Sequence record: OL362272.1
Strand: one strand, 5' to 3'
Origin: Escherichia phage 6948
DNA length: 44,545 nt
Position numbers and translations under genes: made by a program. Below, piece after piece: positions 2,199 to 21,736 of the stretch. A model generated the notes under the pieces. It saw only the letters and a list, made by a program, of their open reading frames with translations, did no database searches and was not told the DNA's origin. The first letter of the stretch is position 1. Every line of letters begins with the position of its first letter.

Positions 2199-2219
2199 TT
2201 ACTGGACACTATAGAAGGA
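2197..2219 (+). promoter_or_regulatory. phage-RNAP promoter after the terminase gene
   Basis: AATTACTGGACACTATAGAAGGA. Confidence 0.7.
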
Positions 2220-2362
2220 AGGCCCAGATAATAAGAGAAATAATAGGTAATATATAGGTTAACCTAGGTTATATAGGTATGCCTTAGTGTGGGTGTACTC
2301 CTGTACACCCTATTCATTACTACCTTACTACCTTACTATATTTACATAATAGGAGAGAGACA

Positions 2363-3973: not shown

Positions 3974-5872
3974 ATGGCTAAATTAACCAAACCTAATACT
4001 GAAGGAATCTTGCATAAAGGACAATCTTTGTATGAGTACCTTGATGCGAGAGTTTTAACATCAAAGCCGTTTGGTGCTGCAGGTGACGCCACTACTGATG
4101 ATACGGAGGTTATAGCTGCTTCATTAAACTCTCAGAAAGCTGTCACAGTCTCAGACGGTGTATTCTCTAGCTCTGGTATTAATAGTAATTACTGTAACTT
4201 AGACGGCAGGGGTAGTGGCGTGCTAAGTCACCGTTCAAGTACAGGTAACTACTTAGTATTTAACAATCTACGTGCAGGTCGCTTAAGTAATATTACGGTA
4301 GAAAGTAATAAGGCGACTGATACAACTCAGGGACAGCAGGTATCCCTTGCTGGTGGAAGTGATGTTACTGTAAGTGACGTTAACTTCTCAAACGTTAAAG
4401 GTACTGGTTTCAGTTTAATCGCATACCCTAATGATGCGCCACCGGATGGACTTATGATTAAAGGCATTCGAGGTAGCTATTCCGGCTATGCTACTAATAA
4501 GGCAGCCGGATGCGTACTTGCTGACTCCTCAGTTAACTCCCTCATAGATAACGTCATTGCTAAGAACTACCCTCAGTTCGGAGCAGTAGAGTTGAAAGGT
4601 ACAGCCAGTTACAACATAGTCAGTAATGTTATAGGGGCAGATTGCCAGCATGTAACTTACAACGGCACTGAAGGGCCAATAGCTCCTTCTAATAACCTTA
4701 TCAATGGGGTGATGGCTAATAACCCTAAGTATGCAGCGGTTGTTGCAGGCAAAGGGAGTACTAACTTAATCTCAGACGTGCTCGTAGATTACTCAACTTC
4801 TGATGCTAGGCAGGCTCATGGTGTTACCGTAGAGGGATCTGATAACGTCATAAATAATGTGCTTATGTCAGGATGTGATGGTACTAACTCTTTAGGACAA
4901 GGGCAGACTGCTACAATTGCACGCTTTATAGGTACAGCTAATAACAACTATGCGTCTGTATTTCCTAGCTACAGTGCTACAGGTGTTATTACTTTCGAAT
5001 CCGGCTCTACCCGTAACTTCGTAGAGGTAAAGCACCCTGGCAGGAGAAACGACATTCTCAGTTCTGCTAGTACTATTGACGGTGCAGCTACTATTGACGG
5101 CACTAATAATAGTAACGTAGTGCACGCACCTGCCTTAGGGCAGTACATAGGTAGTATGTCAGGTAGGTTCGAATGGCGGATTAAGTCCATGTCACTCCCT
5201 TCAGGTGTTCTTACTTCTGCTGATAAGTACAGAATGCTTGGAGATGGTGCTGTGTCATTAGCTGTAGGTGGGGGCACTTCTTCTCAAGTTCGCCTATTTA
5301 CTTCTGATGGTACTTCTCGGACAGTGTCCATCACCAACGGTAACGTGCGTCTTTCTACCAGTAGCACAGGCTATTTGCAGTTAGGTGCTGATGCAATGAC
5401 CCCAGATAGTACTGGTACATACGCATTAGGTTCCGCCAGTCGAGCATGGTCTGGCGGTTTTACTCAAGCAGCATTCACTGTTACCTCAGATGCTCGGTGT
5501 AAAACAGAACCTCTTACTATCTCAGATGCATTACTAGATGCTTGGTCTGAAGTTGACTTTGTGCAGTTTCAGTATTTGGATCGTGTTGAGGAGAAGGGTG
5601 CAGACTCAGCTAGATGGCACTTCGGTATCATCGCTCAGCGAGCTAAGGATGCCTTCGAACGTCACGGTATAGATGCACATCGCTATGGCTTCTTGTGCTT
5701 CGACAGTTGGGATGATGTATACGAGGAAGATGCCAATGGCTCTCGTAAACTGATTACACCAGCAGGTTCCCGCTACGGTATTCGTTACGAGGAAGCACTG
5801 ATATTAGAGGCTGCGTTGATGCGGCGGACTATTAAGCGTATGCAGGAAGCACTAGCTTCCCTGCCTAAGTAA
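3974..5872 (+). CDS. tailspike 1: beta-helix capsule depolymerase with C-terminal intramolecular chaperone (peptidase S74-like) domain
   Basis: 632 aa from ATG 3974 (RBS AGGAG); Ser/Thr/Gly/Asn-rich beta-helix-like repeats; C-terminus TVTS-DARCK...LDAWSEVDFVQFQYLDR...WHFGIIAQ matches the autoproteolytic chaperone module of endosialidase/K5-lyase-type tailspikes. Confidence 0.85.
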   Translation: MAKLTKPNTEGILHKGQSLYEYLDARVLTSKPFGAAGDATTDDTEVIAASLNSQKAVTVSDGVFSSSGINSNYCNLDGRGSGVLSHRSSTGNYLVFNNLRAGRLSNITVESNKATDTTQGQQVSLAGGSDVTVSDVNFSNVKGTGFSLIAYPNDAPPDGLMIKGIRGSYSGYATNKAAGCVLADSSVNSLIDNVIAKNYPQFGAVELKGTASYNIVSNVIGADCQHVTYNGTEGPIAPSNNLINGVMANNPKYAAVVAGKGSTNLISDVLVDYSTSDARQAHGVTVEGSDNVINNVLMSGCDGTNSLGQGQTATIARFIGTANNNYASVFPSYSATGVITFESGSTRNFVEVKHPGRRNDILSSASTIDGAATIDGTNNSNVVHAPALGQYIGSMSGRFEWRIKSMSLPSGVLTSADKYRMLGDGAVSLAVGGGTSSQVRLFTSDGTSRTVSITNGNVRLSTSSTGYLQLGADAMTPDSTGTYALGSASRAWSGGFTQAAFTVTSDARCKTEPLTISDALLDAWSEVDFVQFQYLDRVEEKGADSARWHFGIIAQRAKDAFERHGIDAHRYGFLCFDSWDDVYEEDANGSRKLITPAGSRYGIRYEEALILEAALMRRTIKRMQEALASLPK

Positions 5873-5878
5873 GCAACA

Positions 5879-5901
5879 GGCAGTGCGTAAGCACTGCTTT
5901 T
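5879..5901 (+). terminator. intrinsic terminator between the tailspike genes
   Basis: Stem GGCAGTGC / GCACTGC(T), GTAA loop, then TTTT. Confidence 0.5.
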
Positions 5902-5958: not shown

Positions 5959-7671
5959 ATGCTTCAAAGATTAAGTGCTTACTTGGTGAAGTACAAGAGT
6001 AAACTAACAGGTACTATTGAGCGCCTGCTATCTGATAAACTATCGGATACAATAGATGTTGCGGATTTTGGAGTTACTCCATCTTCCAATGACAACAGGC
6101 AAGCACTTCAAGCTGCGTTCAATGCAGTCAGAGTGTTAGGCGGTGGCACTGTATTAGTCACTAAAGCTGGAAAATACAAACTCAGTGGTACTGTTGAGAT
6201 ATTTGCTAATACACACTTCAAGGTGGCTAAAGGTGTAACATTTGTACGTGACTACGAAACAGGAGATACGCTATTCAGATTATCACAAGGGCAAGCTAGT
6301 AATGTAACAGTCAGTGGAGGTATCTATGAAGGCAATGGTCACACTAAGGGAGATACACCTTTTGTAGTATTTGCATCTACTAGTAATAATGATTTGAAGT
6401 TTGAAGGCATAACAGTTAACAATGTAGTGGACTACCACGCCATAGATTTAGCAGATTGGAACAACGTAGTTATTCGTGATTGTAAATTCCTAGGTTTTAA
6501 GAATACAGGCAGTCGTAACTTCTCAGAGGCTATACAGTTAGACCCAGGTCTTATTACAGTTGGTCACTATGTACAGTCAAGTGGTATGCTGGTGGAGAAT
6601 TGCTATGCTGGTCCAAACACAGAATCAGGGTTTGGAGGTTATGGTGCACTAATTGGAAATCACGCCTCAGCTTACGGTGTACAGGACAACAATATCCGTA
6701 TCTTGAATTGCACTACAGATGGTGCTCTCTTTGCAGGTGTACGTGTATTTAACTGGAAAAACTGGACAGTGCGTGGTTGCACATTTAGGAACTCTAATGC
6801 AAGAGGTGTCCATGTTACACCTGTCTCATCTCAGACTAAACCGCAGGGTACTCGACAAGGTAGTATTGTAGATTGCACTTTTGATGGCGTAAGGACACCA
6901 GTGCTAATTGCTGCACCATCTTGGCCTTTTACCGATATTAGTGACATTTGGCATGACCATATTGAAATTTCTAATAATACTATGATCCTCACAGAGGATG
7001 TATCCTATGGTGTAGATGCAAGGTGGTGTAAGAATTTAATTGTAAAAGGTAATACAGGCTCTGGTGGCTTAGGGTTAATCGGTTTACGCTTTGGGACAAA
7101 ATACCACATCGAAGGTAATACTTGGGAAAACGGAAGAGGTAGTGGGATTTGGTTAGGTGAGTCTGATGCTACTACATTCATTGGTACTGGTTTATCAGGA
7201 GAAGGTATACTTAGTCGTAATATCTTCTCTAAATTAGGGCAATATGGTATTCATGTAAACTGCAAGGCTAGCTGTCTAGTGATTAAAGCCAATAATATGA
7301 AGGAAGTATCTACAGCTGAAGCAGGTAGGCACTTCATTAGTATAGACACAGGGGCTAACAACATCCTAGTAGAAGGTAATATTGGAGTAGACGGAGAAAG
7401 CCCTAACAAGCCAAGCCTTGGTATTCGTGTTACTTCTTCTTGTTCCAATATTAAACTCATTGGCAATGATTGCTATGGCACACAGGCGCCTCAGAATAAC
7501 CAAGGAGTTGGTTCTAGTACGGTGATTGTTTATGGGCTAAATGGCAACCCTACAACTTTAGGCGTAGGTGCACCTGTAGGCTCTTTAGCAACTGATATCA
7601 ATGGTTCTGGTGGTAGTACATTGTACGTTAAAGAATCTGGTACATCTGCTCAAGGTTGGGTTGCAAAGTAG
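5959..7671 (+). CDS. tailspike 2: pectate-lyase-like right-handed beta-helix depolymerase
   Basis: 570 aa, RBS AAAGGAGG; N-terminal DVADFGVTPSSNDNRQALQAAF...GGGTVLV resembles the start of pectate-lyase-3/GH28-like phage depolymerases; repetitive NxxVxG/GN turns. Confidence 0.75.
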   Translation: MLQRLSAYLVKYKSKLTGTIERLLSDKLSDTIDVADFGVTPSSNDNRQALQAAFNAVRVLGGGTVLVTKAGKYKLSGTVEIFANTHFKVAKGVTFVRDYETGDTLFRLSQGQASNVTVSGGIYEGNGHTKGDTPFVVFASTSNNDLKFEGITVNNVVDYHAIDLADWNNVVIRDCKFLGFKNTGSRNFSEAIQLDPGLITVGHYVQSSGMLVENCYAGPNTESGFGGYGALIGNHASAYGVQDNNIRILNCTTDGALFAGVRVFNWKNWTVRGCTFRNSNARGVHVTPVSSQTKPQGTRQGSIVDCTFDGVRTPVLIAAPSWPFTDISDIWHDHIEISNNTMILTEDVSYGVDARWCKNLIVKGNTGSGGLGLIGLRFGTKYHIEGNTWENGRGSGIWLGESDATTFIGTGLSGEGILSRNIFSKLGQYGIHVNCKASCLVIKANNMKEVSTAEAGRHFISIDTGANNILVEGNIGVDGESPNKPSLGIRVTSSCSNIKLIGNDCYGTQAPQNNQGVGSSTVIVYGLNGNPTTLGVGAPVGSLATDINGSGGSTLYVKESGTSAQGWVAK

Positions 7672-8031: not shown

Positions 8032-8680
8032 CCAAAGTCAAAATTTTGATGTAGGCGTGTGTCAGCTCTCTCGCCCTCGCCCTCGCCGGGTTGCCCCCAT
8101 AGGGTGGCCTGAGGGAATCCGTCTTCGACGGGCAGGGCTGATGTACTCCTTGGATAGTACAAGGGGGGGCGGAGGGAACGCCTAGGGAGGCCCAGGAATG
8201 GCTTAGTGGTGGACAAGGTGATTACCTTAGTGAAGCCTCTTAGTGCAGTCCTGAGGCCATTCAGGGCCATTCCTGAGCGTTTGACAGGGTGGGAGGGTGT
8301 GGGCTATCTGTTCGTTTCGTTCACTCCGCTTGCGCTACGTTCACTCGCTCACGTGTACCTTAGGTTATTCCTTGATGGATAGCTTAGGTTAGCCTTAGTG
8401 GACTACCTTAGTTAAAGCCTTAGTGCTTCACTTAGTATCAGCTTAGTAGTGTGCCTTAGTAAGTCTTAGTGTCTTCTCTTAGTGATTGCACATGCAAGCA
8501 TGTAAGATGCCATTAGGTCGCGGTCGGTAGACCGCTAAAGAAGAAGTATAGTAATAAGATGCAGTAGGAGGAACACCAGAAACCTAGCCAACCTAGCCTA
8601 TCCTAGCTCTGTATCTATTGCTTTTCCTTAGTCTAACATGTGAGACAACCTAGATTTATCTTAGTGATGATATCTTAGTG

Positions 8681-8709
8681 TTGACAAGGCCATCTCAATA
8701 TAATACTAT
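8681..8709 (+). promoter_or_regulatory. candidate host sigma70 early promoter
   Basis: TTGACA (8681-8686), 17-nt spacer, TACTAT (8704-8709); upstream of the first early ORFs. Confidence 0.3.
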
Positions 8710-11471: not shown

Positions 11472-14099
11472 ATGCAAGACCTACACGCTATTCAACTTCA
11501 ACTTGAAGAAGAAATGTTTAACGGCGGTATCCGTCGCTTTGAAGCGGACCAACAACGCCAGATTGCATCCGGTAATGAATCAGACACGGCATGGAATCGC
11601 CGCTTATTGTCCGAGTTAATCGCGCCAATGGCTGAAGGTATTCAGGCATACAAGGAAGAGTATGAAGGTAAAAGAGGCCGTGCACCGCGTGCATTAGCTT
11701 TCATTAACTGCGTAGAAAACGAAGTGGCAGCATATATCACGATGAAAATCGTTATGGATATGCTGAACACGGATGTAACCTTGCAGGCTATAGCCATGAA
11801 TGTAGCTGACCGCATTGAGGACCAAGTACGTTTTAGCAAGCTGGAAGGTCACGCCGCCAAATACTTTGAGAAAGTTAAGAAGTCACTTAAGGCAAGTAAG
11901 ACTAAATCATATCGCCATGCGCACAACGTAGCGGTCGTGGCTGAGAAGTCAGTAGCTGACCGTGACGCTGATTTCTCTCGCTGGGAGGCATGGCCTAAAG
12001 ACACCTTGCTGCAAATTGGGATGACCTTGCTTGAAATCTTAGAGAATAGCGTATTCTTCAACGGGCAACCTGTCTTCCTCCGCACCTTGCGCACTAATGG
12101 TGGCAAGCATGGTGTTTACTACTTACAGACCAGTGAGCACGTAGGGGAGTGGATTACAGCATTTAAAGAACATGTAGCGCAACTTAGTCCAGCCTATGCT
12201 CCTTGCGTCATCCCTCCGCGTCCGTGGGTATCACCTTTTAACGGCGGTTTCCACACTGAGAAAGTAGCAAGCCGTATTCGTCTGGTAAAAGGAAACCGCG
12301 AACACGTCCGCAAGCTGACCAAAAAGCAAATGCCAGCGGTTTACAAGGCTGTTAACGCTTTGCAGGCGACTAAGTGGCAGGTTAATAAAGAGGTTTTACA
12401 GGTTGTGGAGGACGTTATACGTCTAGACCTCGGCTATGGTGTACCTTCCTTTAAACCACTCATCGACCGTGAGAACAAGCCAGCTAATCCGGTGCCGTTA
12501 GAGTTCCAGCACCTGCGAGGCCGTGAACTGAAAGAAATGCTTACGCCGGAACAATGGCAAGCCTTTATCAACTGGAAAGGTGAATGTACTAAGCTGTACA
12601 CCGCTGAAACTAAGCGCGGAAGCAAATCGGCGGCAACCGTTCGCATGGTTGGTCAGGCCCGTAAATATAGCCAGTTCGACGCAATCTACTTCGTGTATGC
12701 ACTGGACAGCCGCAGCCGTGTATACGCGCAATCTAGCACGCTCTCGCCGCAATCAAACGACTTAGGCAAGGCATTGCTCCGTTTTACCGAAGGGCAGCGT
12801 CTTGATAGCGCTGAGGCGCTTAAGTGGTTTTTGGTGAACGGGGCGAATAACTGGGGTTGGGATAAGAAAACTTTTGACGTGCGCACCTCTAACGTGCTGG
12901 ATGGCGAATTTCAAGACATGTGCCGCGACATTGCAGCCGATCCGCTGACCTTCACTCAATGGGTAAATGCTGATTCCCCTTACGGCTTCCTTGCATGGTG
13001 CTTTGAATATGCGCGTTATCTGGATGCACTGGATGAAGGCACGCAAGACCAATTCATGACGCATCTACCCGTCCATCAAGACGGTAGTTGCTCTGGTATC
13101 CAGCACTATAGCGCGATGTTACGCGATGAAGTAGGTGCGAAAGCAGTAAACCTTAAGCCTTCTGACTTCCCTCAAGATATTTATGGCGCGGTTGCGCAGG
13201 TTGTTATCCAGAAGAATTACGCCTACATGAATGCAGACGATGCAGAGATTTTCACATCTGGAAGCGTCACACTTACAGGTGCAGAACTGCGTAGCATGGC
13301 TAGTGCGTGGGATATGATAGGAATCACTCGCGGATTGACCAAAAAGCCCGTAATGACACTACCTTATGGCAGCACACGTCTAACCTGCCGTGAATCAGTG
13401 ATTGATTATATCGTTGATTTGGAAGAAAAAGAGGCCCAACGAGCTATTGCGGAAGGGCGTACCGCCAATCCTGTACATCCTTTTGATAATGACCGTAAGG
13501 ACAGCCTGACACCTAGTGCAGCTTATAACTATATGACGGCTTTAATCTGGCCTTCTATTTCGGAAGTGGTTAAAGCTCCTATAGTGGCAATGAAAATGAT
13601 TCGTCAGCTTGCCCGTTTCGCAGCTAAAAGGAATGAAGGCTTAGAGTATACCTTGCCTACTGGCTTCATCTTGCAACAAAAGATTATGGCTACCGACATG
13701 CTACGCGTATCCACTTGCTTGATGGGTGAAATCAAGATGAGTCTACAGATTGAGACTGATGTAGTGGATGAAACGGCTATGATGGGCGCTGCTGCTCCTA
13801 ACTTTGTTCACGGGCATGATGCTAGTCATCTCATCCTGACTGTATGTGACCTCGTTGACAAGGGCATTACATCCATCGCAGTCATCCATGATTCTTTCGG
13901 TACTCACGCAGGCCGTACAGCCGATCTACGTGATAGTCTAAGGGCAGAAATGGTGAAGATGTATCAAGGCCGTAATGCCCTGCAAAGCCTGTTAGATGAG
14001 CATGAAGAACGCTGGTTAGTAGACACCGGAATCCAAGTGCCAGAGCAAGGAGAGTTTGACCTTAACGAAATCTTAGTATCTGACTATTGCTTCGCATAA
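11472..14099 (+). CDS. single-subunit DNA-directed RNA polymerase (SP6-type)
   Basis: 875 aa; motifs [31 protein letters not shown] and C-terminal ...YCFA typical of T7/SP6 RNAP; N-terminus [16 protein letters not shown] resembles SP6 RNAP as recalled. Confidence 0.95.
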
Positions 14100-14107
14100 T
14101 ATTAATA

Positions 14108-14138
14108 GGCCATTCCTTCGGGAGTGGCCTTTTCTTTT
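14108..14138 (+). terminator. intrinsic terminator after the RNAP gene (early terminator analogue)
   Basis: Stem GGCCATTCC / GGAGTGGCC with TTCG tetraloop followed by TTTTCTTTT. Confidence 0.6.
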
Positions 14139-14172
14139 ACCTACTACCGGTAACATTTCATTAACATAAAGT

Positions 14173-14188
14173 GTCTCACATGTGAGAC
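14173..14188. repeat. conserved palindrome GTCTCACATGTGAGAC (copy 1)
   Basis: Perfect 16-bp palindrome, 3 nt upstream of promoter 14191. Confidence 0.8.
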
Positions 14189-14190
14189 TT

Positions 14191-14213
14191 ATTTACCGGA
14201 CACTATAGGATAG
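14191..14213 (+). promoter_or_regulatory. phage-RNAP promoter downstream of the RNAP gene (first of a tandem pair)
   Basis: ATTTACCGGACACTATAGGATAG. Confidence 0.7.
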
Positions 14214-14353
14214 CCGTCGGAGACGGGAAAGAAAGGGAAGATAAAGGATATAAAGGAAGTAATAGGTATTAAAGGTTATATAGGTTATCTAGGAATACCT
14301 ATTACCTTCTTCCTTCCTCTTATTACCACTTAGAGGAAGGGCAGATCTAGGTT

Positions 14354-14369
14354 GTCTCACATGTGAGAC
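14354..14369. repeat. conserved palindrome GTCTCACATGTGAGAC (copy 2)
   Basis: Identical 16-mer, 5 nt upstream of promoter 14375. Confidence 0.8.
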
Positions 14370-14374
14370 TTCGT

Positions 14375-14397
14375 ATTTACCGGACAGTATAGATAAG
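14375..14397 (+). promoter_or_regulatory. variant phage-RNAP promoter (second of the tandem pair)
   Basis: ATTTACCGGACAGTATAGATAAG; C-to-G change at -5. Confidence 0.45.
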
Positions 14398-14422
14398 ACT
14401 AACTTACTTTGGAGATTTAACC

Positions 14423-14551
14423 ATGCGTAACTTTGAGAAGATGACCCGTAAAGCTAACCGTTTTGACATGGAAGAAGGGCAGACGAAAGGCAAGAAGCTG
14501 AATAAACCTGTCCGTGACCGTGCATCTAAACGCGCAGCATGGGAGTTCTGA
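14423..14551 (+). CDS. gp1.1-like small basic protein
   Basis: 42 aa MRNFEKMTRKANRF...LNKPVRDRASKRAAWEF; same length, start and position after RNAP as T7 gene 1.1. Confidence 0.6.
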   Translation: MRNFEKMTRKANRFDMEEGQTKGKKLNKPVRDRASKRAAWEF

Positions 14552-14554
14552 GTT

Positions 14555-14773
14555 ATGGCTAAATACAGAATCAAGACCTGTTTAAATAGTCACGGGCAAG
14601 AGTTCTACGTAGTGCAACGTAAAGTATTAGGCTTAATATGGGTCACTTGTATGATGCCTATTGGCTATACTGATACAGAGGCTATCTTCTGCACCGAAAG
14701 GGATGCAAAGAAGTTTATCTCTAAGCGTAGAAAAGCTGACTCTTACCAACCTAGAATTATTAAGGTGAACTAA
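14555..14773 (+). CDS. hypothetical protein
   Basis: 72 aa ORF, GGAG upstream; stop overlaps the primase/helicase start. Confidence 0.5.
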   Translation: MAKYRIKTCLNSHGQEFYVVQRKVLGLIWVTCMMPIGYTDTEAIFCTERDAKKFISKRRKADSYQPRIIKVN

Positions 14774-16761
14774 TGGCTATTATTAATAACATCCCGTGCC
14801 CTGCCTGCCAGAAGAATGGGCACGATAAATCAGGCAATCATCTCATGATATTTGATGATGGTGCTGGCTATTGTAACCGTGGTCACTTCCATGATAATGG
14901 GAAGCCCTATTACCATAAGCCAGAGGGTGGTATCGAGATAACCGAATTGCCTATTACTGGCAATATCAAATATACACCTTCTCAATTCAAAGAAATGGAG
15001 AAGGAAGGGAAGATAAGCGACCCTAAGCTACGCGCCATCGCTCTTGGTGGTATGCGTATGAAAGACCGTTGGGAGGTCATGAATGAGCAAGAAAGGGCAG
15101 ACCAAGAAGCAGAGTGGAAACTTGATGTTGAATGGTTCCTCACGCTTAAGCGTAAGAACCTTGTTTCCCGACACATTCGCGGCGACATTTGCGCATTGTA
15201 TGATGTACGTGTCGGACACGATGAAGAGGGTAGAGTCTCGCGGCATTACTATCCACGCTTCGAGAAAGGTGAGCTAGTAGGAGCTAAGTGTCGTACCTTA
15301 CCTAAAGATTTCAAGTTTGGACACTTAGGTAAACTCTTTGGTATGCAAGATCTTTTCGGTATGAATACTTTGTCTCACGTGTTAGACAAGGGGAGACGAA
15401 AGGATTGCTTGCTTATTGTAGGCGGTGAACTTGATGCACTAGCAGCGCAGCAGATGCTCCTTGATTCTGCCAAAGGTACTAAGTGGGAAGGTCAGCCATA
15501 CCATGTATGGTCTGTCAATAAAGGTGAGTCTTGCCTTGAAGAGATAGTGCAAAACCGTGAGCACATAGCCCAATTCAAGAAGATTATATGGGGCTTTGAT
15601 GGCGACGAGGTGGGGCAGAAGCAGAACCAACAAGCTGCTCGCCTGTTTCCTGGCAAATCCTACATCCTCGAATATCCATCTGGTTGCAAAGATGCTAACA
15701 AGGCATTGATGGCTGGCAAGGCTAAAGAGTTTGTAGATGCATGGTTTAATGCCAAGTCATCTGATGAAGTCTTTGGTAGCCAGATTAAATCTATCGCATC
15801 TCAAAGGGATAAGCTCAAGGCTGCACGTCCAGAGCAAGGACTATCATGGCCTTGGCCTAAGCTGAACAAGGTAACGCTAGGTATTCGTAAGAACCAACTT
15901 ATCATTGTAGGCGCAGGCTCTGGTGTAGGTAAGACTGAGTTCCTTCGTGAAGTAGTTAAGCACCTCATTGAAGAACACGGTGAATCTGTAGGCATCATTT
16001 CTACAGAAGACCCGATGGTCAAGGTGTCCCGTGCTTTTATCGGCAAGTGGATTGATAAGCGTATTGAGTTACCGCCAACCAACGACCCGAAAGAAGATGG
16101 ATACCGTGAGGTGTTCGACTACACCGAAGAAGAGGCTAACGCCGCCATTGATTATGTAGCTGATACAGGTAAGCTGTTTGTAGCTGACCTAGAGGGTGAC
16201 TATTCGATGGAAAAGGTAGAGCAAACTTGCCTAGAGTTTGAGGCTATGGGCATTTCTAATATCATCATTGATAACTTAACGGGGATTAAATTAGATGAGC
16301 GTGCTTTTGGTGGGAAGGTTGGTGCACTTGATGAATGCGTCAAGCGGATTGGTACTATCAAAGACCGACACCCGGTTACTATATTCCTTGTATCACACCT
16401 TACACGTCCTCCGGCAAACCGTACCCAACACGAAGAAGGTGGCGAGGTTATCCTTTCTGACTTCCGAGGTTCAGGCGCTATCGGATTCTGGGCATCTTAC
16501 GCCTTGGGGATTGAGCGTAATACAAGAGCTGAAACGCTTGACGAAAGGACTACCACGTACATCTCATGTGTCAAAGACCGCGACCAAGGTATCTGGACTG
16601 GAACCAAGGTCATGCTTAAGGGTGACATTCAAACCGGACGTTTAATGGAACCACAAGCCCGTACTAAGTCATTTGACACCGGCGAAGCAAGGCAACAAGA
16701 AGTACCGGATTTACCGGACACTATAGAAGAGACTAACTTCGATGAAGAAAGTGAGTTCTGA
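14773..16761 (+). CDS. bifunctional DNA primase/helicase (gp4-like)
   Basis: 662 aa; N-terminal zinc ribbon CPACQ...CNRGH, central TOPRIM-like region, Walker A GAGSGVGKT, Walker B IIIDNL; acidic C-terminus ending ...DEESEF. Confidence 0.9.
   Translation: MAIINNIPCPACQKNGHDKSGNHLMIFDDGAGYCNRGHFHDNGKPYYHKPEGGIEITELPITGNIKYTPSQFKEMEKEGKISDPKLRAIALGGMRMKDRWEVMNEQERADQEAEWKLDVEWFLTLKRKNLVSRHIRGDICALYDVRVGHDEEGRVSRHYYPRFEKGELVGAKCRTLPKDFKFGHLGKLFGMQDLFGMNTLSHVLDKGRRKDCLLIVGGELDALAAQQMLLDSAKGTKWEGQPYHVWSVNKGESCLEEIVQNREHIAQFKKIIWGFDGDEVGQKQNQQAARLFPGKSYILEYPSGCKDANKALMAGKAKEFVDAWFNAKSSDEVFGSQIKSIASQRDKLKAARPEQGLSWPWPKLNKVTLGIRKNQLIIVGAGSGVGKTEFLREVVKHLIEEHGESVGIISTEDPMVKVSRAFIGKWIDKRIELPPTNDPKEDGYREVFDYTEEEANAAIDYVADTGKLFVADLEGDYSMEKVEQTCLEFEAMGISNIIIDNLTGIKLDERAFGGKVGALDECVKRIGTIKDRHPVTIFLVSHLTRPPANRTQHEEGGEVILSDFRGSGAIGFWASYALGIERNTRAETLDERTTTYISCVKDRDQGIWTGTKVMLKGDIQTGRLMEPQARTKSFDTGEARQQEVPDLPDTIEETNFDEESEF
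16709..16731 (+). promoter_or_regulatory. phage-RNAP promoter inside the 3' end of the primase/helicase gene
   Basis: ATTTACCGGACACTATAGAAGAG. Confidence 0.7.
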
Positions 16762-16781
16762 TTAGTGTATTTATCAGGGCT

Positions 16782-16799
16782 TGTCTCACACGTGAGACA
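16782..16799. repeat. conserved palindrome family, TGTCTCACACGTGAGACA (copy 3)
   Basis: 7-bp arms TGTCTCA/TGAGACA with CACG centre; flanks extend the stem (GGGCTTG...CAGGCTC); after primase/helicase. Confidence 0.75.
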
Positions 16800-16837
16800 G
16801 GCTCTTATTAAGTACATTAAATAACTGGAGATTGATT

Positions 16838-17521
16838 ATGTATAAATTAGTATTGAATGTAGGTGATTATGTTCGTAACATCAATGTAACCTCACGTAGA
16901 TATCGTTGCCGTGGTACTGTGACTAATGTAAGTGAAAACAGCTACTATGTAGAATACAGTAATGGTATTAGACAGGCTTATCAAAAGGAATCAGCACATA
17001 ACTACCTTGAGAAGATTGGAGAGGTAAGCAATCAATGTAAGTGCGTACACGATGAGATTTGCGATAAGTGTGCCCGCCAGCTGCATAAAATGCTATTATA
17101 CCCTCTTCGCTATGGTGCTGGTGTTCAAACATTAGCAGAGGCATATGGCAAAAGTAAGACCACACTCAAGAAAGAGCGCCGCAATGTAATCACTGGTAAG
17201 ACTCAAAGTGAAATGATTAAACTATGTGGCACTGCATTAGGTGTTACGCAGTTTAATACTCGTTCATTGGGTAAATCCACAGGGCAAGCTATGGTAAAGA
17301 TTGGCGAAGCCATGATGCATCCAAATGTACCTGTACGAATCATGGATGTTGACCATGCAATCACAGAACACGGTACGCAACGACGTGTAATTAATAAGCA
17401 TTTTGCCGACACTATAGAAGGTATTATTCGTAAGCAAGAGTTGAAGGGTCTTCACATCTTAAATGGTGAAGAATTACTGTACCTACCTATCGTTACTGAA
17501 GAAACCTACGTGAATATCTAA
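16838..17521 (+). CDS. hypothetical protein
   Basis: 227 aa from ATG 16838 (GGAG 9 nt upstream); Cys cluster CKCVHDEICDKC. Confidence 0.5.
   Translation: MYKLVLNVGDYVRNINVTSRRYRCRGTVTNVSENSYYVEYSNGIRQAYQKESAHNYLEKIGEVSNQCKCVHDEICDKCARQLHKMLLYPLRYGAGVQTLAEAYGKSKTTLKKERRNVITGKTQSEMIKLCGTALGVTQFNTRSLGKSTGQAMVKIGEAMMHPNVPVRIMDVDHAITEHGTQRRVINKHFADTIEGIIRKQELKGLHILNGEELLYLPIVTEETYVNI
17400..17422 (+). promoter_or_regulatory. variant phage-RNAP promoter
   Basis: ATTTTGCCGACACTATAGAAGGT; upstream half diverges. Confidence 0.4.
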
Positions 17522-21092: not shown

Positions 21093-21650
21093 ATGAATGA
21101 ACTGAACACTAAGATGCTCAAGAAAGTTTATAATCTTGTATATAGTATCACGGGCCTACAATTCTACCCTGTAGGCGGTGCGGTTCGTGACACCCTGTAC
21201 GGATTAACACCTAAAGACTATGATATGGTGTTGCCTGTAGGGTCTATGGCAGATTCTCAGGCGCACGAAATCATGGAAAATATCTCTGAAGAGATGGCAA
21301 TTATGGGATTTAGTACCAAACTCTACCAATCATACGGTATCAATTTAGGTTATGAAATCAACCCTACCTCTTTTCAGGCTATGTTCCTTAGCTGCATGAA
21401 AGTGCAGATGCGTAATTGCCAACTTGATTTGCTTCTTTCTAAGGCTGAAACCATCCAAGATCATGTACGTAAGCACGATTGCAATATGAATATGGTGTGG
21501 TTCGATGGTAAAGATATCAAGTGGGAGCACGGCGGTGTTACTCCTTTCGTTCCTGTGTTAGAGTTCAACCCTGACGGATGTGATCGTCGCATTGCTTACA
21601 TGGACAAGAAGCGCCATGAACTTATCCGTCACAAATTAATGCATCTTTGA
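21093..21650 (+). CDS. polymerase-beta-superfamily nucleotidyltransferase, CCA-adding-enzyme/poly(A)-polymerase head-domain-like
   Basis: 185 aa from ATG 21093 (GGAGG 8 nt upstream); YPVGGAVRDTLYGLTPKDYDMVLPVG matches the GGxVRD...DxD signature of class II tRNA nucleotidyltransferases. Confidence 0.6.
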   Translation: MNELNTKMLKKVYNLVYSITGLQFYPVGGAVRDTLYGLTPKDYDMVLPVGSMADSQAHEIMENISEEMAIMGFSTKLYQSYGINLGYEINPTSFQAMFLSCMKVQMRNCQLDLLLSKAETIQDHVRKHDCNMNMVWFDGKDIKWEHGGVTPFVPVLEFNPDGCDRRIAYMDKKRHELIRHKLMHL

Positions 21651-21672
21651 TTTACCGGACACTATAGAAGGA
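21650..21672 (+). promoter_or_regulatory. phage-RNAP promoter
   Basis: ATTTACCGGACACTATAGAAGGA. Confidence 0.75.
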
Positions 21673-21736
21673 AGTCCTAGGTAATCTAGGTTTATAAGGT
21701 AGTATAGGTAATTAAGTAAATATAGGAGATATAAAC

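What the first reader, a model, noticed from the sequence alone, without database searches (positions are those of the whole stretch)
14108..14420. Candidate primary replication origin between the RNAP and gp1.1-like genes
The 320-bp non-coding gap holds a terminator, two palindrome copies, two tandem phage promoters (14191, 14375) and between them an AT-rich block with TATAGGT-like short repeats and inverted repeats. In T7 the primary origin has the same logic: tandem promoters followed by an AT-rich region just downstream of gene 1. Similar promoter plus AT-rich TAGGT-repeat blocks occur at 2197-2360 (after terminase, like T7 phiOR) and 21650-21736.
Basis: inference. Interest (0 to 1): 0.5.

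Follow-up and report, generated by a model that had tools for sequence, protein, structure and literature searches.

The report
Origin-like promoter region after phage RNAP
The gap after the RNA polymerase gene of this SP6/K1E-like phage is a strongly conserved control region that sits exactly where phage T7 has its main replication origin and looks like one, but sequence alone cannot show that replication starts here, and much of its conservation reflects RNA hairpins and repeats found elsewhere in the genome.

Summary
The window is a K1E/K1-5-type Vectrevirus (SP6-like). The 323-bp gap at 14100-14422 holds an intrinsic terminator, two copies of a [16-bp palindrome + phage promoter] module, and between them a 9-10-bp AGG(T/A) tandem array that pairs with a CT-rich tract.

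The downstream gene is a T7 gp1.1 homologue (59% identity). The gap is therefore the positional homologue of the T7 primary-origin region, at about the same 14-15% of the genome.

A duplex-stability signature that separates T7's origin promoters from its other promoters also picks P1 (14191). It equally picks promoters 2197, 21650 and 16709.

The architecture is kept in E. coli, Salmonella, Klebsiella and Proteus relatives, and it is far more conserved than synonymous sites. In two lineages the array is not notably AT-rich. The palindromes belong to a genome-wide family of eight. The hairpins show compensatory changes. This points to selection on the motif and on structure, not on easy melting alone.

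The origin reading is plausible (about 0.4) but unproven. GC skew, primase sites and Rfam gave nothing.

Side finding: a conserved ArcA-type box, perfect in SP6, lies just upstream of P1.

The parts
11472..14099 (+). Phage single-subunit RNA polymerase gene (left boundary of the region)
   Evidence: ORF of 875 aa. Annotated as RNA polymerase in K1E, K1-5 and EEc2 at 93-97% DNA identity.
14107..14139 (+). Intrinsic terminator: 10-bp stem with TTCG loop (14107-14130) followed by TTTCTTTT. It probably ends host-RNAP early transcription.
   Evidence: Terminator scan. The stem sequence differs between lineages with compensatory changes while the loop and T-run are kept (A1). A terminator after the RNAP gene is reported for SP6 and UAB_Phi78 (PMC4837284).
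14151..14165 (-). ArcA-type direct-repeat box GTTAATGAAATGTTA, inside the near-invariant spacer 14139-14171
   Evidence: 14/15 match to the published ArcA-P site GTTAATTAAATGTTA (PMC4173790). It is the only match with up to 2 mismatches in the window. SP6 has a perfect 15/15 match at the same place. The spacer is nearly invariant in A1.
14173..14188 (.). Palindrome copy 1 (GTCTCACATGTGAGAC), 2 bp upstream of the P1 recognition sequence
   Evidence: Member of an 8-copy family whose copies are all positionally conserved in SP6, there as GTC(C/T)AAC-NN-GTTGGAC.
14191..14208 (+). Phage promoter P1 (consensus type), +1 = G at 14208
   Evidence: Exact match to the window's promoter consensus. 99% conserved among 16 Vectrevirus sequences. 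Its specificity region changes together with that of P2 in other lineages.
14214..14226 (+). 5'-proximal leader hairpin H1 (CCGTC-GGA-GACGG)
   Evidence: RNAalifold gives 5 pairs; the central pair is GC in 8, AU in 2 and UA in 1 sequence. C-N-TCGGAGA-N-G is also kept in the Proteus and K22-type phages.
14227..14293 (+). Tandem array of seven 9-11-nt units, each ending in AGG (later units TAGGT-like). This is the AT-rich, purine-rich block.
   Evidence: TRF period 9. AGG[TA] spacing is 9,10,9,9,9. The AGG positions are invariant across 13 phages (A1). Copy number varies from 5 to 10 between lineages by whole-unit indels.
14253..14311 (+). Long imperfect hairpin H2: the last array units pair with the start of the CT-rich tract
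   Evidence: Inverted repeat I1, 18 nt, 89% complementary. Present in the MFE and centroid folds. An equivalent hairpin is predicted in every lineage, and folds are more stable than half-preserving shuffles with z from -2.4 to -8.2.
14298..14340 (+). CT-rich tract and small hairpin H3 (CCTTCCTCT / AGAGGAAGG, arms 14312-14320 and 14332-14340)
   Evidence: Inverted repeat I9, 9 nt, 100% complementary. The tract is 96% conserved among Vectreviruses. An H3-like hairpin with a different sequence is predicted in the SP6, GRNsp03 and K22 lineages.
14354..14369 (.). Palindrome copy 2
   Evidence: 100% conserved in 16 Vectrevirus sequences. The SP6-type version shows changes on both arms.
14375..14392 (+). 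Phage promoter P2 (non-consensus: G instead of C at -5), +1 = G at 14392
   Evidence: it is the only one of the 12 sites with CAGTATAG. SP6-type phages carry a different deviation at the same site (CTATTG). P2 follows the lineage's promoter specificity in L080, K22 and Proteus phages.
14423..14551 (+). Gene 8, homologue of T7 gene 1.1 (right boundary of the region)
   Evidence: BLASTP against T7 gp1.1: 59% identity over 41 aa, E = 1e-13. phrog_2490.

Best explanation
The gap is the conserved early/middle boundary control region of an SP6-like phage and the orthologue of the T7 gene 1-gene 1.1 interval.

Proposed sequence of events:
1. Host-RNAP early transcription ends at the terminator.
2. 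The newly made phage RNAP starts at P1, and more weakly at P2.
3. The P1 transcript begins with a protective 5' hairpin and runs through a purine-rich, easily melted 9-10-bp AGG(T/A) array.
4. As in T7, this transcription opens the duplex, and the RNA 3' end (or a persistent RNA:DNA hybrid on the pyrimidine template) is taken over by the phage DNA polymerase.
5. The gp4-like primase-helicase loads on the displaced strand.

On this model, 14191 to about 14340 acts as a transcription-activated origin, probably one of several such blocks. The same leader also folds into hairpins (H1, H2, H3, palindrome 2) that act at the RNA level for stability or processing, much as the R1.1 RNase III site sits between the T7 tandem promoters.

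Shown here: the elements, their conservation, the positional homology and the T7-type signature. Inferred: priming, helicase loading, and any use as an origin in vivo.
For: **Position**
- gp8 is a T7 gp1.1 homologue, and the RNAP gene lies immediately upstream.
- T7 has phi1.1A and phi1.1B between the same two genes.
- P1/P2 is the only close promoter pair among the 12 sites.
- SP6 P1 is at 6118 of 43769 bp (14.0%); T7 phi1.1A/B are at 5848/5923 of 39937 bp (14.7%).

**Signature calibrated on T7**
- The measure is the least-stable 60-mer within +1..+150 of each promoter, ranked against the whole genome.
- T7 phiOL, phi1.1A/B, phi6.5 and phiOR fall in the top 0.01-0.28%. All 12 other T7 promoters are at 0.59% or worse.
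- P14191 scores 0.04%. Its SP6 counterpart P6118 scores 0.11%.
- The four most AT-rich T7 segments are exactly those origin-associated promoters.

**Favourable to a persistent RNA:DNA hybrid**
- 14219-14278 is the most purine-rich 60-mer of the window.

**Constraint on the region**
- Among 16 Vectrevirus sequences, identity is 0.89 in the array, 0.96 in the CT tract, 0.99 in P1 and 1.00 in palindrome 2.
- RNAP third codon positions stand at 0.68.
- The gap is 97-100% identical in relatives whose flanks are 91-97% identical.

**Depth of conservation**
- The order terminator - palindrome - P1 - H1 - array - CT tract - P2 - gp1.1-like gene is kept across five promoter-specificity lineages.

**Machinery**
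- The phage encodes homologues of the T7 RNAP, primase-helicase and DNA polymerase.
Against: - No direct evidence of initiation exists or can be obtained from sequence.
- The signature is not specific to this block. P2197 (0.05%), P21650 (0.01%) and P16709 (top of the genome) score as well or better.
- In K22PH164C1-type and Proteus relatives the same array is only in the top 0.8-1.6%. The conserved property is therefore the periodic AGGTA motif and the hairpin, not low duplex stability.
- The layout differs from T7. The block lies between the promoters, where T7 has the R1.1 hairpin, and the leader downstream of P2 is only 30 nt.
- The degree of sequence conservation is more than a simple unwinding element should need.
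- The SP6-type primase site 5'-GCA-3' (PMC2034472) occurs only once on each strand of the gap, is not enriched, and is not conserved outside the Vectrevirus and SP6 lineages.
- The GC-skew step at 14.2 kb is not seen at third codon positions, and the same test misplaces the known T7 origin.
- TRF finds no tandem array in the T7 AT-rich tract.
Confidence: 0.4

Rival explanations
1. This is purely a gene-expression element. The gap is a terminator plus two promoters, with a structured leader whose hairpins control mRNA stability or processing. H2 would be an RNase III-type site like T7 R1.1, H1 a 5' stabiliser, and the palindrome a processing or 3'-end hairpin. Replication would start elsewhere, for example at the 21650, 2197 or 16709 blocks or near the genome ends.
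For: - H1 shows compensatory changes.
- Leader self-complementarity exceeds half-preserving shuffles in all 8 lineages, although the sequences differ.
- H2 and H3 equivalents are predicted in each lineage.
- The block lies where T7 has an RNA hairpin between its tandem promoters (that this hairpin is the R1.1 site at 5887 is from my own knowledge).
- Palindrome copies at 16783, 17927 and 39714 have 7 extra flanking pairs, including U.G wobbles possible only in + sense RNA, plus U-rich tails. Changes on both arms relative to SP6 keep this pairing.
- 5' hairpins are a general feature of this phage's transcripts.
- At 21650 and 2197, TAGGT arrays form the 5' UTRs of genes.
- Other promoter blocks match the origin signature equally well.
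Against: - H2 pairs do not covary in the multi-lineage alignment.
- Single substitutions among Vectreviruses are partly disruptive.
- Folding energies of the + and - strands are similar, so there is no RNA-specific wobble signal in H2.
- Array copy number varies by whole units, which does not fit a precise fold.
- No Rfam family matches.
- This reading does not exclude an origin role; in T7 both functions coexist in the same interval.
Confidence: 0.35
2. The periodic AGG(T/A) array is a binding platform for a sequence-specific factor that is shared by these phages or their hosts. The factor could act on double-stranded DNA, single-stranded DNA or RNA. The array would be iteron-like or an intrinsically curved segment that controls P1/P2 or origin firing. 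The same motif would serve at 2214-2290, at 21667-21720 and in the CTTAGG/CTTAGT arrays near the left genome end.
For: - The AGG positions are invariant at 9-10-nt spacing, while the spacers and the copy number vary.
- The motif is kept even where AT-richness is lost, as in the K22 type.
- The array does not change with promoter specificity, so it is not an RNAP decoy.
- The same motif occurs in three promoter-proximal blocks conserved in SP6.
- CTTAGGTTA-type repeats lie near the left end.
- A host response-regulator box lies next to it.
Against: - No candidate binding protein was identified.
- The units are much shorter than classical iterons, and no initiator gene is adjacent.
- The pairing with the CT tract explains part of the conservation without any protein.
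- GGU rather than GGA in most units argues against CsrA.
Confidence: 0.15
3. The features are a chance juxtaposition in ordinary intergenic DNA, with no function beyond the two promoters and the terminator.
For: AT-rich, repeat-rich intergenic DNA is common in phages. TRF scores for the array are low (36).
Against: Conservation is far above that of synonymous sites. The architecture is retained across genera and host species. Motif clustering and folding both exceed shuffles.
Confidence: 0.03

Closest known systems
Primary origin of bacteriophage T7 (phi1.1A/phi1.1B plus the AT-rich tract between gene 1 and gene 1.1; Saito et al. 1980, cited in PMC10142737)
   Same: - Same flanking genes: RNAP upstream and a gp1.1 homologue downstream.
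- Same fractional genome position, about 14-15%.
- Two tandem rightward phage promoters.
- A block among the least stable in the genome within 150 bp of a promoter.
- Homologous replication enzymes.
   Different: - The AT-rich block lies between the promoters, not after both.
- It is a 9-10-bp AGG(T/A) tandem array that pairs with a CT tract; TRF finds no array in T7.
- An intrinsic terminator, a response-regulator-type box and palindromes precede P1; T7 has none of these here.
- Related lineages keep the array without notable AT-richness.
- Origin activity is unproven.
T7 R1.1 RNase III processing site (between phi1.1A and phi1.1B; coordinate 5887 from my own knowledge of Dunn & Studier 1983)
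   Same: - It is a hairpin-forming segment between the two tandem promoters.
- The T7 segment folds with z = -2.7; the window leader folds with z between -2 and -3.9.
- Both 3' arms end in ACCTTCTTCC.
   Different: - The hairpin here is built from repeat units and is longer, with variable register between lineages.
- RNase III cleavage was not tested.
- The shared 10-mer is low-complexity and may be chance.
T7 secondary origins and 'replication promoters' (phiOL, phiOR, phi6.5)
   Same: - They are promoters followed by extreme low-stability blocks.
- The window's 2197 block lies directly after the large terminase gene, as phiOR does in T7.
- Short-repeat arrays near the left end resemble the T7 arrays next to phiOL.
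   Different: - Here the blocks are TAGGT arrays that also serve as 5' UTRs of genes.
- No functional data exist for them.
Iteron-type origins (plasmids, phage lambda)
   Same: Tandem direct repeats at roughly one helical turn, next to an easily melted segment.
   Different: The units are 9-11 bp rather than about 17-22 bp. No initiator gene is adjacent. The phage family uses RNAP-dependent initiation in its best-studied member.

Membership tests
T7-type transcription-activated replication origin | Lies between the phage RNAP gene and the gene 1.1 homologue, about 15% from the left end | tested here: met
   gp8 against T7 gp1.1: 59% identity, E = 1e-13. RNAP gene ends at 14099. SP6 counterpart at 14.0% and T7 at 14.7% of the genome.
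T7-type transcription-activated replication origin | One or two phage-RNAP promoters reading rightward into the region | tested here: met
   P1 at 14191 and P2 at 14375. Both follow the lineage-specific promoter sequence in L080, K22-type and Proteus phages.
T7-type transcription-activated replication origin | Strongly AT-rich, easily melted tract just downstream of the promoter(s) | tested here: met
   75% AT in 14238-14297, top 0.1%. Least-stable 60-mer in the top 0.04% of the genome, inside the range of T7 origin promoters. Caveats: the tract lies after P1 only; three other promoters also qualify; K22-type and Proteus relatives reach only the top 0.8-1.6%.
T7-type transcription-activated replication origin | Primase recognition site on the displaced strand in or next to the AT-rich tract | tested here: inconclusive
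   The SP6 primase site is 5'-GCA-3' (PMC2034472). There is one GCA on the + strand (14341-14343) and one on the - strand at the start codon. The site is not enriched and is absent at this position in the cp4, K22, Proteus and L080 lineages.
T7-type transcription-activated replication origin | DNA synthesis actually initiates here and depends on phage RNAP transcription | not testable with these tools
   Needs replication-intermediate mapping or an in vitro or plasmid origin assay. The GC-skew proxy failed its T7 control.
RNase III processing site of T7-group phages | Extended imperfect hairpin in an intercistronic part of the transcript | tested here: met
   H2 has 18-nt arms, 89% complementary. 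Equivalent hairpins are predicted in all lineages, and folds beat half-preserving shuffles.
RNase III processing site of T7-group phages | Base pairing maintained by compensatory substitutions | tested here: inconclusive
   RNAalifold keeps only 8 weak pairs in the H2 region, with broken pairs. The repeat nature makes the alignment ambiguous. Vectrevirus substitutions are a mix of wobble-compatible and disruptive changes.
RNase III processing site of T7-group phages | Cleavage by host RNase III | not testable with these tools
   Needs RNA-end mapping in rnc+ and rnc- hosts.
Iteron-type origin | Several 17-22-bp direct repeats bound by an initiator encoded nearby | tested here: not met
   The units are 9-11 nt. 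The neighbouring genes are RNAP, gp1.1-like, gp8.5 and primase-helicase; no initiator family was found.
Intrinsic (rho-independent) terminator | GC-rich hairpin followed by a T run, with structure conserved in relatives | tested here: met
   Compensatory stem changes across lineages.
ArcA-P binding site | Two TGTTA direct repeats 11 bp apart matching GTTAATTAAATGTTA | tested here: met
   14/15 in the window and 15/15 in SP6. Consensus from PMC4173790. Binding itself was not tested, and no overlapping sigma-70 promoter was found.

The most novel reading that the evidence does not exclude
The periodic AGG(T/A) array with its complementary CT tract is a distinct cis-element of SP6-like phages. 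It is conserved for its motif rather than its AT content. It recurs at three promoter-proximal sites, and CTTAGG/CTTAGT repeats that share part of its motif lie near the genome end. On this reading it is read by a still unknown factor, possibly together with host ArcA-P bound at the adjacent box, to couple origin firing or middle transcription to host physiology such as oxygen supply.
Probability: 0.15. Interest if true: 0.6.

Novelty: new member of a known kind. Interest (0 to 1): 0.35.

Why it matters
To my knowledge, no replication origin has been mapped in the SP6/K1E group, and the paper library I could search holds nothing on it. These phages are widely used for therapy of encapsulated E. 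coli, Salmonella and Klebsiella, for RNAP tools and for engineered-phage chassis. Knowing which intergenic blocks are origin or processing elements tells engineers what must not be deleted or recoded.

If confirmed, the region would show that the T7 solution of RNAP promoter plus melted tract next to gene 1.1 predates the split of the two subfamilies. The conserved array and the ArcA-type box would then be lineage-specific additions worth testing.

Tried and rejected
1. **GC skew as origin evidence.** The best breakpoint falls at about 14200 in the window and 5850 in SP6. In T7 the same test gives 2.1 or 9.5 kb, not 5.9 kb. Third-codon-position skew shows no step at 14.2 kb. The shift also coincides with the first phage promoter. 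Rejected.
2. **Rfam.** Only sub-threshold chance matches to miRNA-like hairpins.
3. **RNAalifold covariation for the long hairpin.** Not supported in the multi-lineage alignment. Only H1 and the palindrome show changes on both sides.
4. **Strand asymmetry of folding, as an RNA-versus-DNA test.** No consistent difference between the + and - strands.
5. **Primase sites.** GCA is not enriched or conserved.
6. **Sigma-70 promoter in the gap.** None was found to give the ArcA-type box a target.
7. **Array as RNAP decoy.** SP6 units resemble the -15 to -9 part of the SP6 promoter, but the arrays do not change with promoter specificity.
8. **Array as CsrA sponge.** Most units are GGU, not GGA.
9. **A TTAAG-type tandem array in the T7 origin.** There is a motif cluster, but TRF finds no repeat, so the parallel is weak.
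10. **Small ORFs in the gap.** None is credible.
11. **Literature.** No held paper maps or proposes an origin for SP6-like phages. The SP6/K1-5 genome paper I tried to open (Dobbins 2004) is not held, and Scholl 2004 did not appear in any search. I therefore cannot say whether they already proposed this.
Full report
**Identity of the window**

The window is a complete, circularly permuted genome of a K1E/K1-5-type Vectrevirus (Autographiviridae, Molineuxvirinae; the SP6-like group). A 1.4-kb query around the finding matches Escherichia phages EEc2, K1E and K1-5 at 92-97%.

In those records the flanking genes are annotated as the RNA polymerase (window 11472-14099), gp8, gp8.5 and the primase/helicase. 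All large ORFs lie on the + strand.

**Check of the observation**

The gap runs from 14100 to 14422 and has no credible ORF. It contains the following elements.

- **Terminator.** An intrinsic terminator with a 10-pair stem at 14107-14130 and a TTCG loop, followed by TTTCTTTT.
- **Palindrome.** The perfect 16-bp palindrome GTCTCACATGTGAGAC lies at 14173 and 14354. There are 8 copies in the window against 0.18 expected.
- **Promoters.** ATTTACCGGACA(C/G)TATAG lies at 14191 and 14375. There are 12 sites in the window against 0.07 expected, and this is the only closely spaced pair.
- **Duplicated module.** Palindrome and promoter form a module about 40 bp long that occurs twice, 181-184 bp apart.
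- **Tandem array.** Between the two copies lies a tandem array with period 9 (TRF). Its seven units each end in AGG, and AGG[TA] spacing is 9,10,9,9,9.
- **Motif clustering.** [AT]A[AT]AGG occurs 6 times in 100 bp. The maximum in 100 shuffles is 4.
- **Composition.** 14238-14297 is 75% AT, in the top 0.1% of 60-bp windows. 14219-14278 is the most purine-rich 60-mer of the genome at 81.7%.
- **Hairpins.** The array is followed by a CT-rich tract that pairs with its last units (18-nt arms, 89% complementary). A 9-bp hairpin follows.

The TAGGT blocks after promoters 2197 and 21650 are also real. So the description is correct. The one difference from T7 is that the AT-rich block lies between the promoters, not after both.

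**Conservation**

The gap is more conserved than the genes around it. It is 97-100% identical in relatives whose 1.4-kb surroundings are 91-97% identical. Mean pairwise identity in 16 distinct Vectrevirus sequences is shown below.

| Segment | Identity |
|---|---|
| RNAP third codon positions | 0.68 |
| P1 | 0.99 |
| Palindrome 2 | 1.00 |
| P2 | 0.985 |
| CT tract | 0.96 |
| Spacer | 0.94 |
| Array (including unit indels) | 0.89 |

The order terminator - palindrome - P1 - 5' hairpin - AGG array - CT tract - (palindrome) - P2 - gp1.1-like gene is kept in several groups:

- SP6 and other Salmonella Zinderviruses, and Klebsiella cp4-type phages;
- a Proteus phage and the Klebsiella K22PH164C1 group, whose RNAP C-termini are 70-75% identical to the window's;
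- 21 IMG/VR contigs found with a pattern for the 5' hairpin.

The promoter specificity region differs between these lineages (ACCGG, AAGGG, AGGAG, GTGTTGC, GTGGC, AGACC). It changes in P1 and P2 together, so both are genuine promoters. P2 is always slightly off consensus: G at -5 in Vectrevirus and Proteus phages, T at -1 in SP6-type phages.

The terminator stem and the 5' hairpin (CCGTC-GGA-GACGG) show compensatory changes.

**Relation to T7**

Gene 8 (14423-14551) is 59% identical to T7 gp1.1. In T7, phi1.1A (5848) and phi1.1B (5923) lie between gene 1 and gene 1.1. That interval is the primary origin: two promoters plus an AT-rich tract. This rests on established knowledge (Saito et al. 1980, listed in PMC10142737).

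The window's gap is therefore the positional homologue. SP6 P1 sits at 14.0% of the genome and T7 phi1.1A/B at 14.7%.

To give the analogy a test, I scored every promoter by the least-stable 60-mer within +1..+150 (nearest-neighbour free energy) and ranked it against the whole genome.

| Genome | Promoters | Rank of least-stable 60-mer |
|---|---|---|
| T7 | phiOL, phi1.1A/B, phi6.5, phiOR (known as origins) | top 0.01-0.28% |
| T7 | the 12 other promoters | 0.59% or worse |
| Window | P14191 | 0.04% |
| Window | P2197 | 0.05% |
| Window | P21650 | 0.01% |
| Window | P16709 | top of the genome |
| Window | the remaining promoters | 0.33% or worse |
| SP6 | P6118 | 0.11% |
| SP6 | P12542 | top of the genome |

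The four most AT-rich T7 segments are also exactly the origin-associated promoters.

P1 thus passes a T7-calibrated origin signature, but it is not unique. Only its position argues for a primary role.

**Evidence that complicates the origin reading**

- **AT-richness is not what is conserved.** In the K22PH164C1 group the array reads TAGGTATACC TAGGTATTCCC GGGTATGCCC TAGGTAACC AGGTATACC. There and in the Proteus phage the leader reaches only the top 0.8-1.6% of local stability. What is invariant is AGG(T/A) at 9-10-nt spacing, while copy number varies from 5 to 10.
- **The leader is selected to fold.** In all 8 lineages the real sequence is more stable than shuffles that keep the purine-rich and pyrimidine-rich halves apart. 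Z-scores run from -2.4 to -8.2, and at most 2% of shuffles reach the observed energy. The pairs do not covary in the alignment, and the + and - strands fold about equally well. RNA, single-stranded DNA or a cruciform therefore cannot be told apart.
- **T7 has an RNA hairpin at this position.** It lies between T7's tandem promoters and is the R1.1 RNase III site (coordinate from my own knowledge). Both 3' arms end in ACCTTCTTCC, but the tract is low-complexity.
- **The palindromes are not origin-specific.**
  - All 8 copies have positional counterparts in SP6, there as GTC(C/T)AAC-NN-GTTGGAC.
  - Copies at 16783, 17927 and 39714 have seven extra flanking pairs, including U.G wobbles possible only in + sense RNA, plus U-rich tails.
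  - Copies at 14173, 14354, 23228 and 8631 are bare and sit 2-35 bp upstream of promoters. The promoter after 8631 is a sigma-70-type early promoter that I read by eye in the sequence.
  - A Vibrio phage of another subfamily has GTCTCAC half-sites and a palindrome upstream of its promoters.
- **Primase sites give no support.** The SP6 primase site 5'-GCA-3' (PMC2034472) is neither enriched nor conserved here.
- **GC skew fails its control.** The breakpoint at about 14200 is unusable, because the same test misplaces the T7 origin and third codon positions show no step.
- **No Rfam family matches**.

**Most likely mechanism**

I favour a composite reading, with about 0.4 confidence for the origin part.

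1. The terminator ends early host transcription.
2. P1 and P2 start middle transcription by the phage RNAP.
3. The P1 transcript carries a protective 5' hairpin and runs through a purine-rich, easily opened array.
4. By analogy with T7, the RNA can there be handed to the phage DNA polymerase, and the primase-helicase can load on the displaced strand.
5. The same leader's hairpins act on the RNA.

The elements, their conservation, the positional homology and the signature are shown here. Priming and in vivo use as an origin are inferred.

The main rival (0.35) is that the region is only an expression and processing element and that replication starts at another block. A third reading (0.15) is that the array is a binding platform for an unknown factor.

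**Side observations**

- **ArcA-type box.** The near-invariant spacer upstream of palindrome 1 contains, on the - strand, GTTAATGAAATGTTA.
  - This is 14/15 to the ArcA-P site GTTAATTAAATGTTA (PMC4173790) and the only such match in the window.
  - SP6 has a perfect 15/15 match at the same place; T7 has none.
  - ArcA-P binds oriC and blocks opening in vitro (PMC4285127).
- **Left-end repeats.** About 14 CTTAG(T/G) repeats, including CTTAGGTTA, lie near the left genome end at about 8190-8480. They resemble the short-repeat arrays next to T7 phiOL.

**Novelty and limits**

This is a new member of a known kind: the SP6-group counterpart of the T7 gene 1-gene 1.1 control and origin region, with lineage-specific additions. 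No held paper maps or proposes an origin in this group. The SP6/K1-5 genome paper I tried to open (Dobbins 2004) is not held, and Scholl 2004 did not appear in any search. I therefore cannot exclude that they already proposed this idea.

Noticed in passing
window 14151-14165 (- strand); SP6 locus L016 6076-6090: A conserved ArcA-type box: GTTAATGAAATGTTA, 14/15 to the published ArcA-P site. SP6 has a perfect 15/15 match at the same position. In each genome it is the only match with up to 2 mismatches. It lies in a near-invariant spacer between the terminator and P1, with no sigma-70 promoter nearby. It is absent in the Proteus and K22-type relatives and in T7.
   Followed up: partly
window 8631, 14173, 14354, 15372, 16783, 17927, 23228, 39714: A family of eight GTCTCAC-NN-GTGAGAC palindromes, all positionally conserved in SP6 as GTC(C/T)AAC-NN-GTTGGAC. 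There are two classes. Copies at 16783, 17927 and 39714 are 13-14-bp RNA-type hairpins with U.G wobbles and U-rich tails at gene ends. Copies at 14173, 14354, 23228 and 8631 are bare and lie 2-35 bp upstream of promoters, both phage-type and (by my own reading of the sequence) sigma-70-type. One copy lies inside the primase/helicase gene in both phages. Function unknown.
   Followed up: partly
window 2214-2360 and 21667-21736; SP6 L016 37790-37900 and 12559-12630: TAGGT arrays of the same 9-11-nt period follow two other promoters and form the 5' UTRs of the next genes. The 21650 block is nearly identical between SP6 and this phage, although the homologous gap at 14100-14422 is only about 71% identical between them. 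The 2197 block also has a central GC hairpin and an ACCTTACT repeat complementary to the array.
   Followed up: partly
window about 8190-8480 and 8575-8610: About 14 copies of CTTAG(T/G), several as CTTAGGTTA, spaced 9-13 nt, followed by CCTAGC repeats. They lie near the presumed left genome end, upstream of the first palindrome and a sigma-70-type promoter that I read by eye (TTGACA-17-TACTAT, about 8681-8709). They resemble the short-repeat arrays next to T7 phiOL.
   Followed up: no
window 16709-16870: Promoter 16709 is followed by an extended palindrome hairpin (16776-16805) and then by the least stable and most AT-rich 60-mer of the whole genome (16803-16862, 78% AT). By the T7-calibrated signature this is as good an origin candidate as 14191.
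   Followed up: partly
loci L003 (VEc3), L009 (pSL2), L012 (PST_H2): Some relatives carry an HNH endonuclease gene inserted just after P2 or inside the leader. K1-5-type phages lack gp8.5 (window 14555-14773). This boundary is therefore a hotspot for gene gain and loss, while the leader itself stays intact.
   Followed up: no
locus L080 (IMGVR_UViG_3300045988_000861): An SP6-like contig whose P1 and P2 both carry a different specificity region (GTGTTGC-(A/C)-CTATAG). This implies an RNAP with a new promoter specificity. The leader architecture is unchanged.
   Followed up: no
locus L020 (Vibrio phage VEN, Colwellvirinae) 1740-1800 and 2040-2080: The same GTCTCAC motif occurs as two direct half-sites and as a 17-bp palindrome just upstream of phage promoters in a different subfamily. 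Half-sites in direct orientation fit a DNA-binding protein better than an RNA hairpin, so the nature of the element remains open.
   Followed up: no
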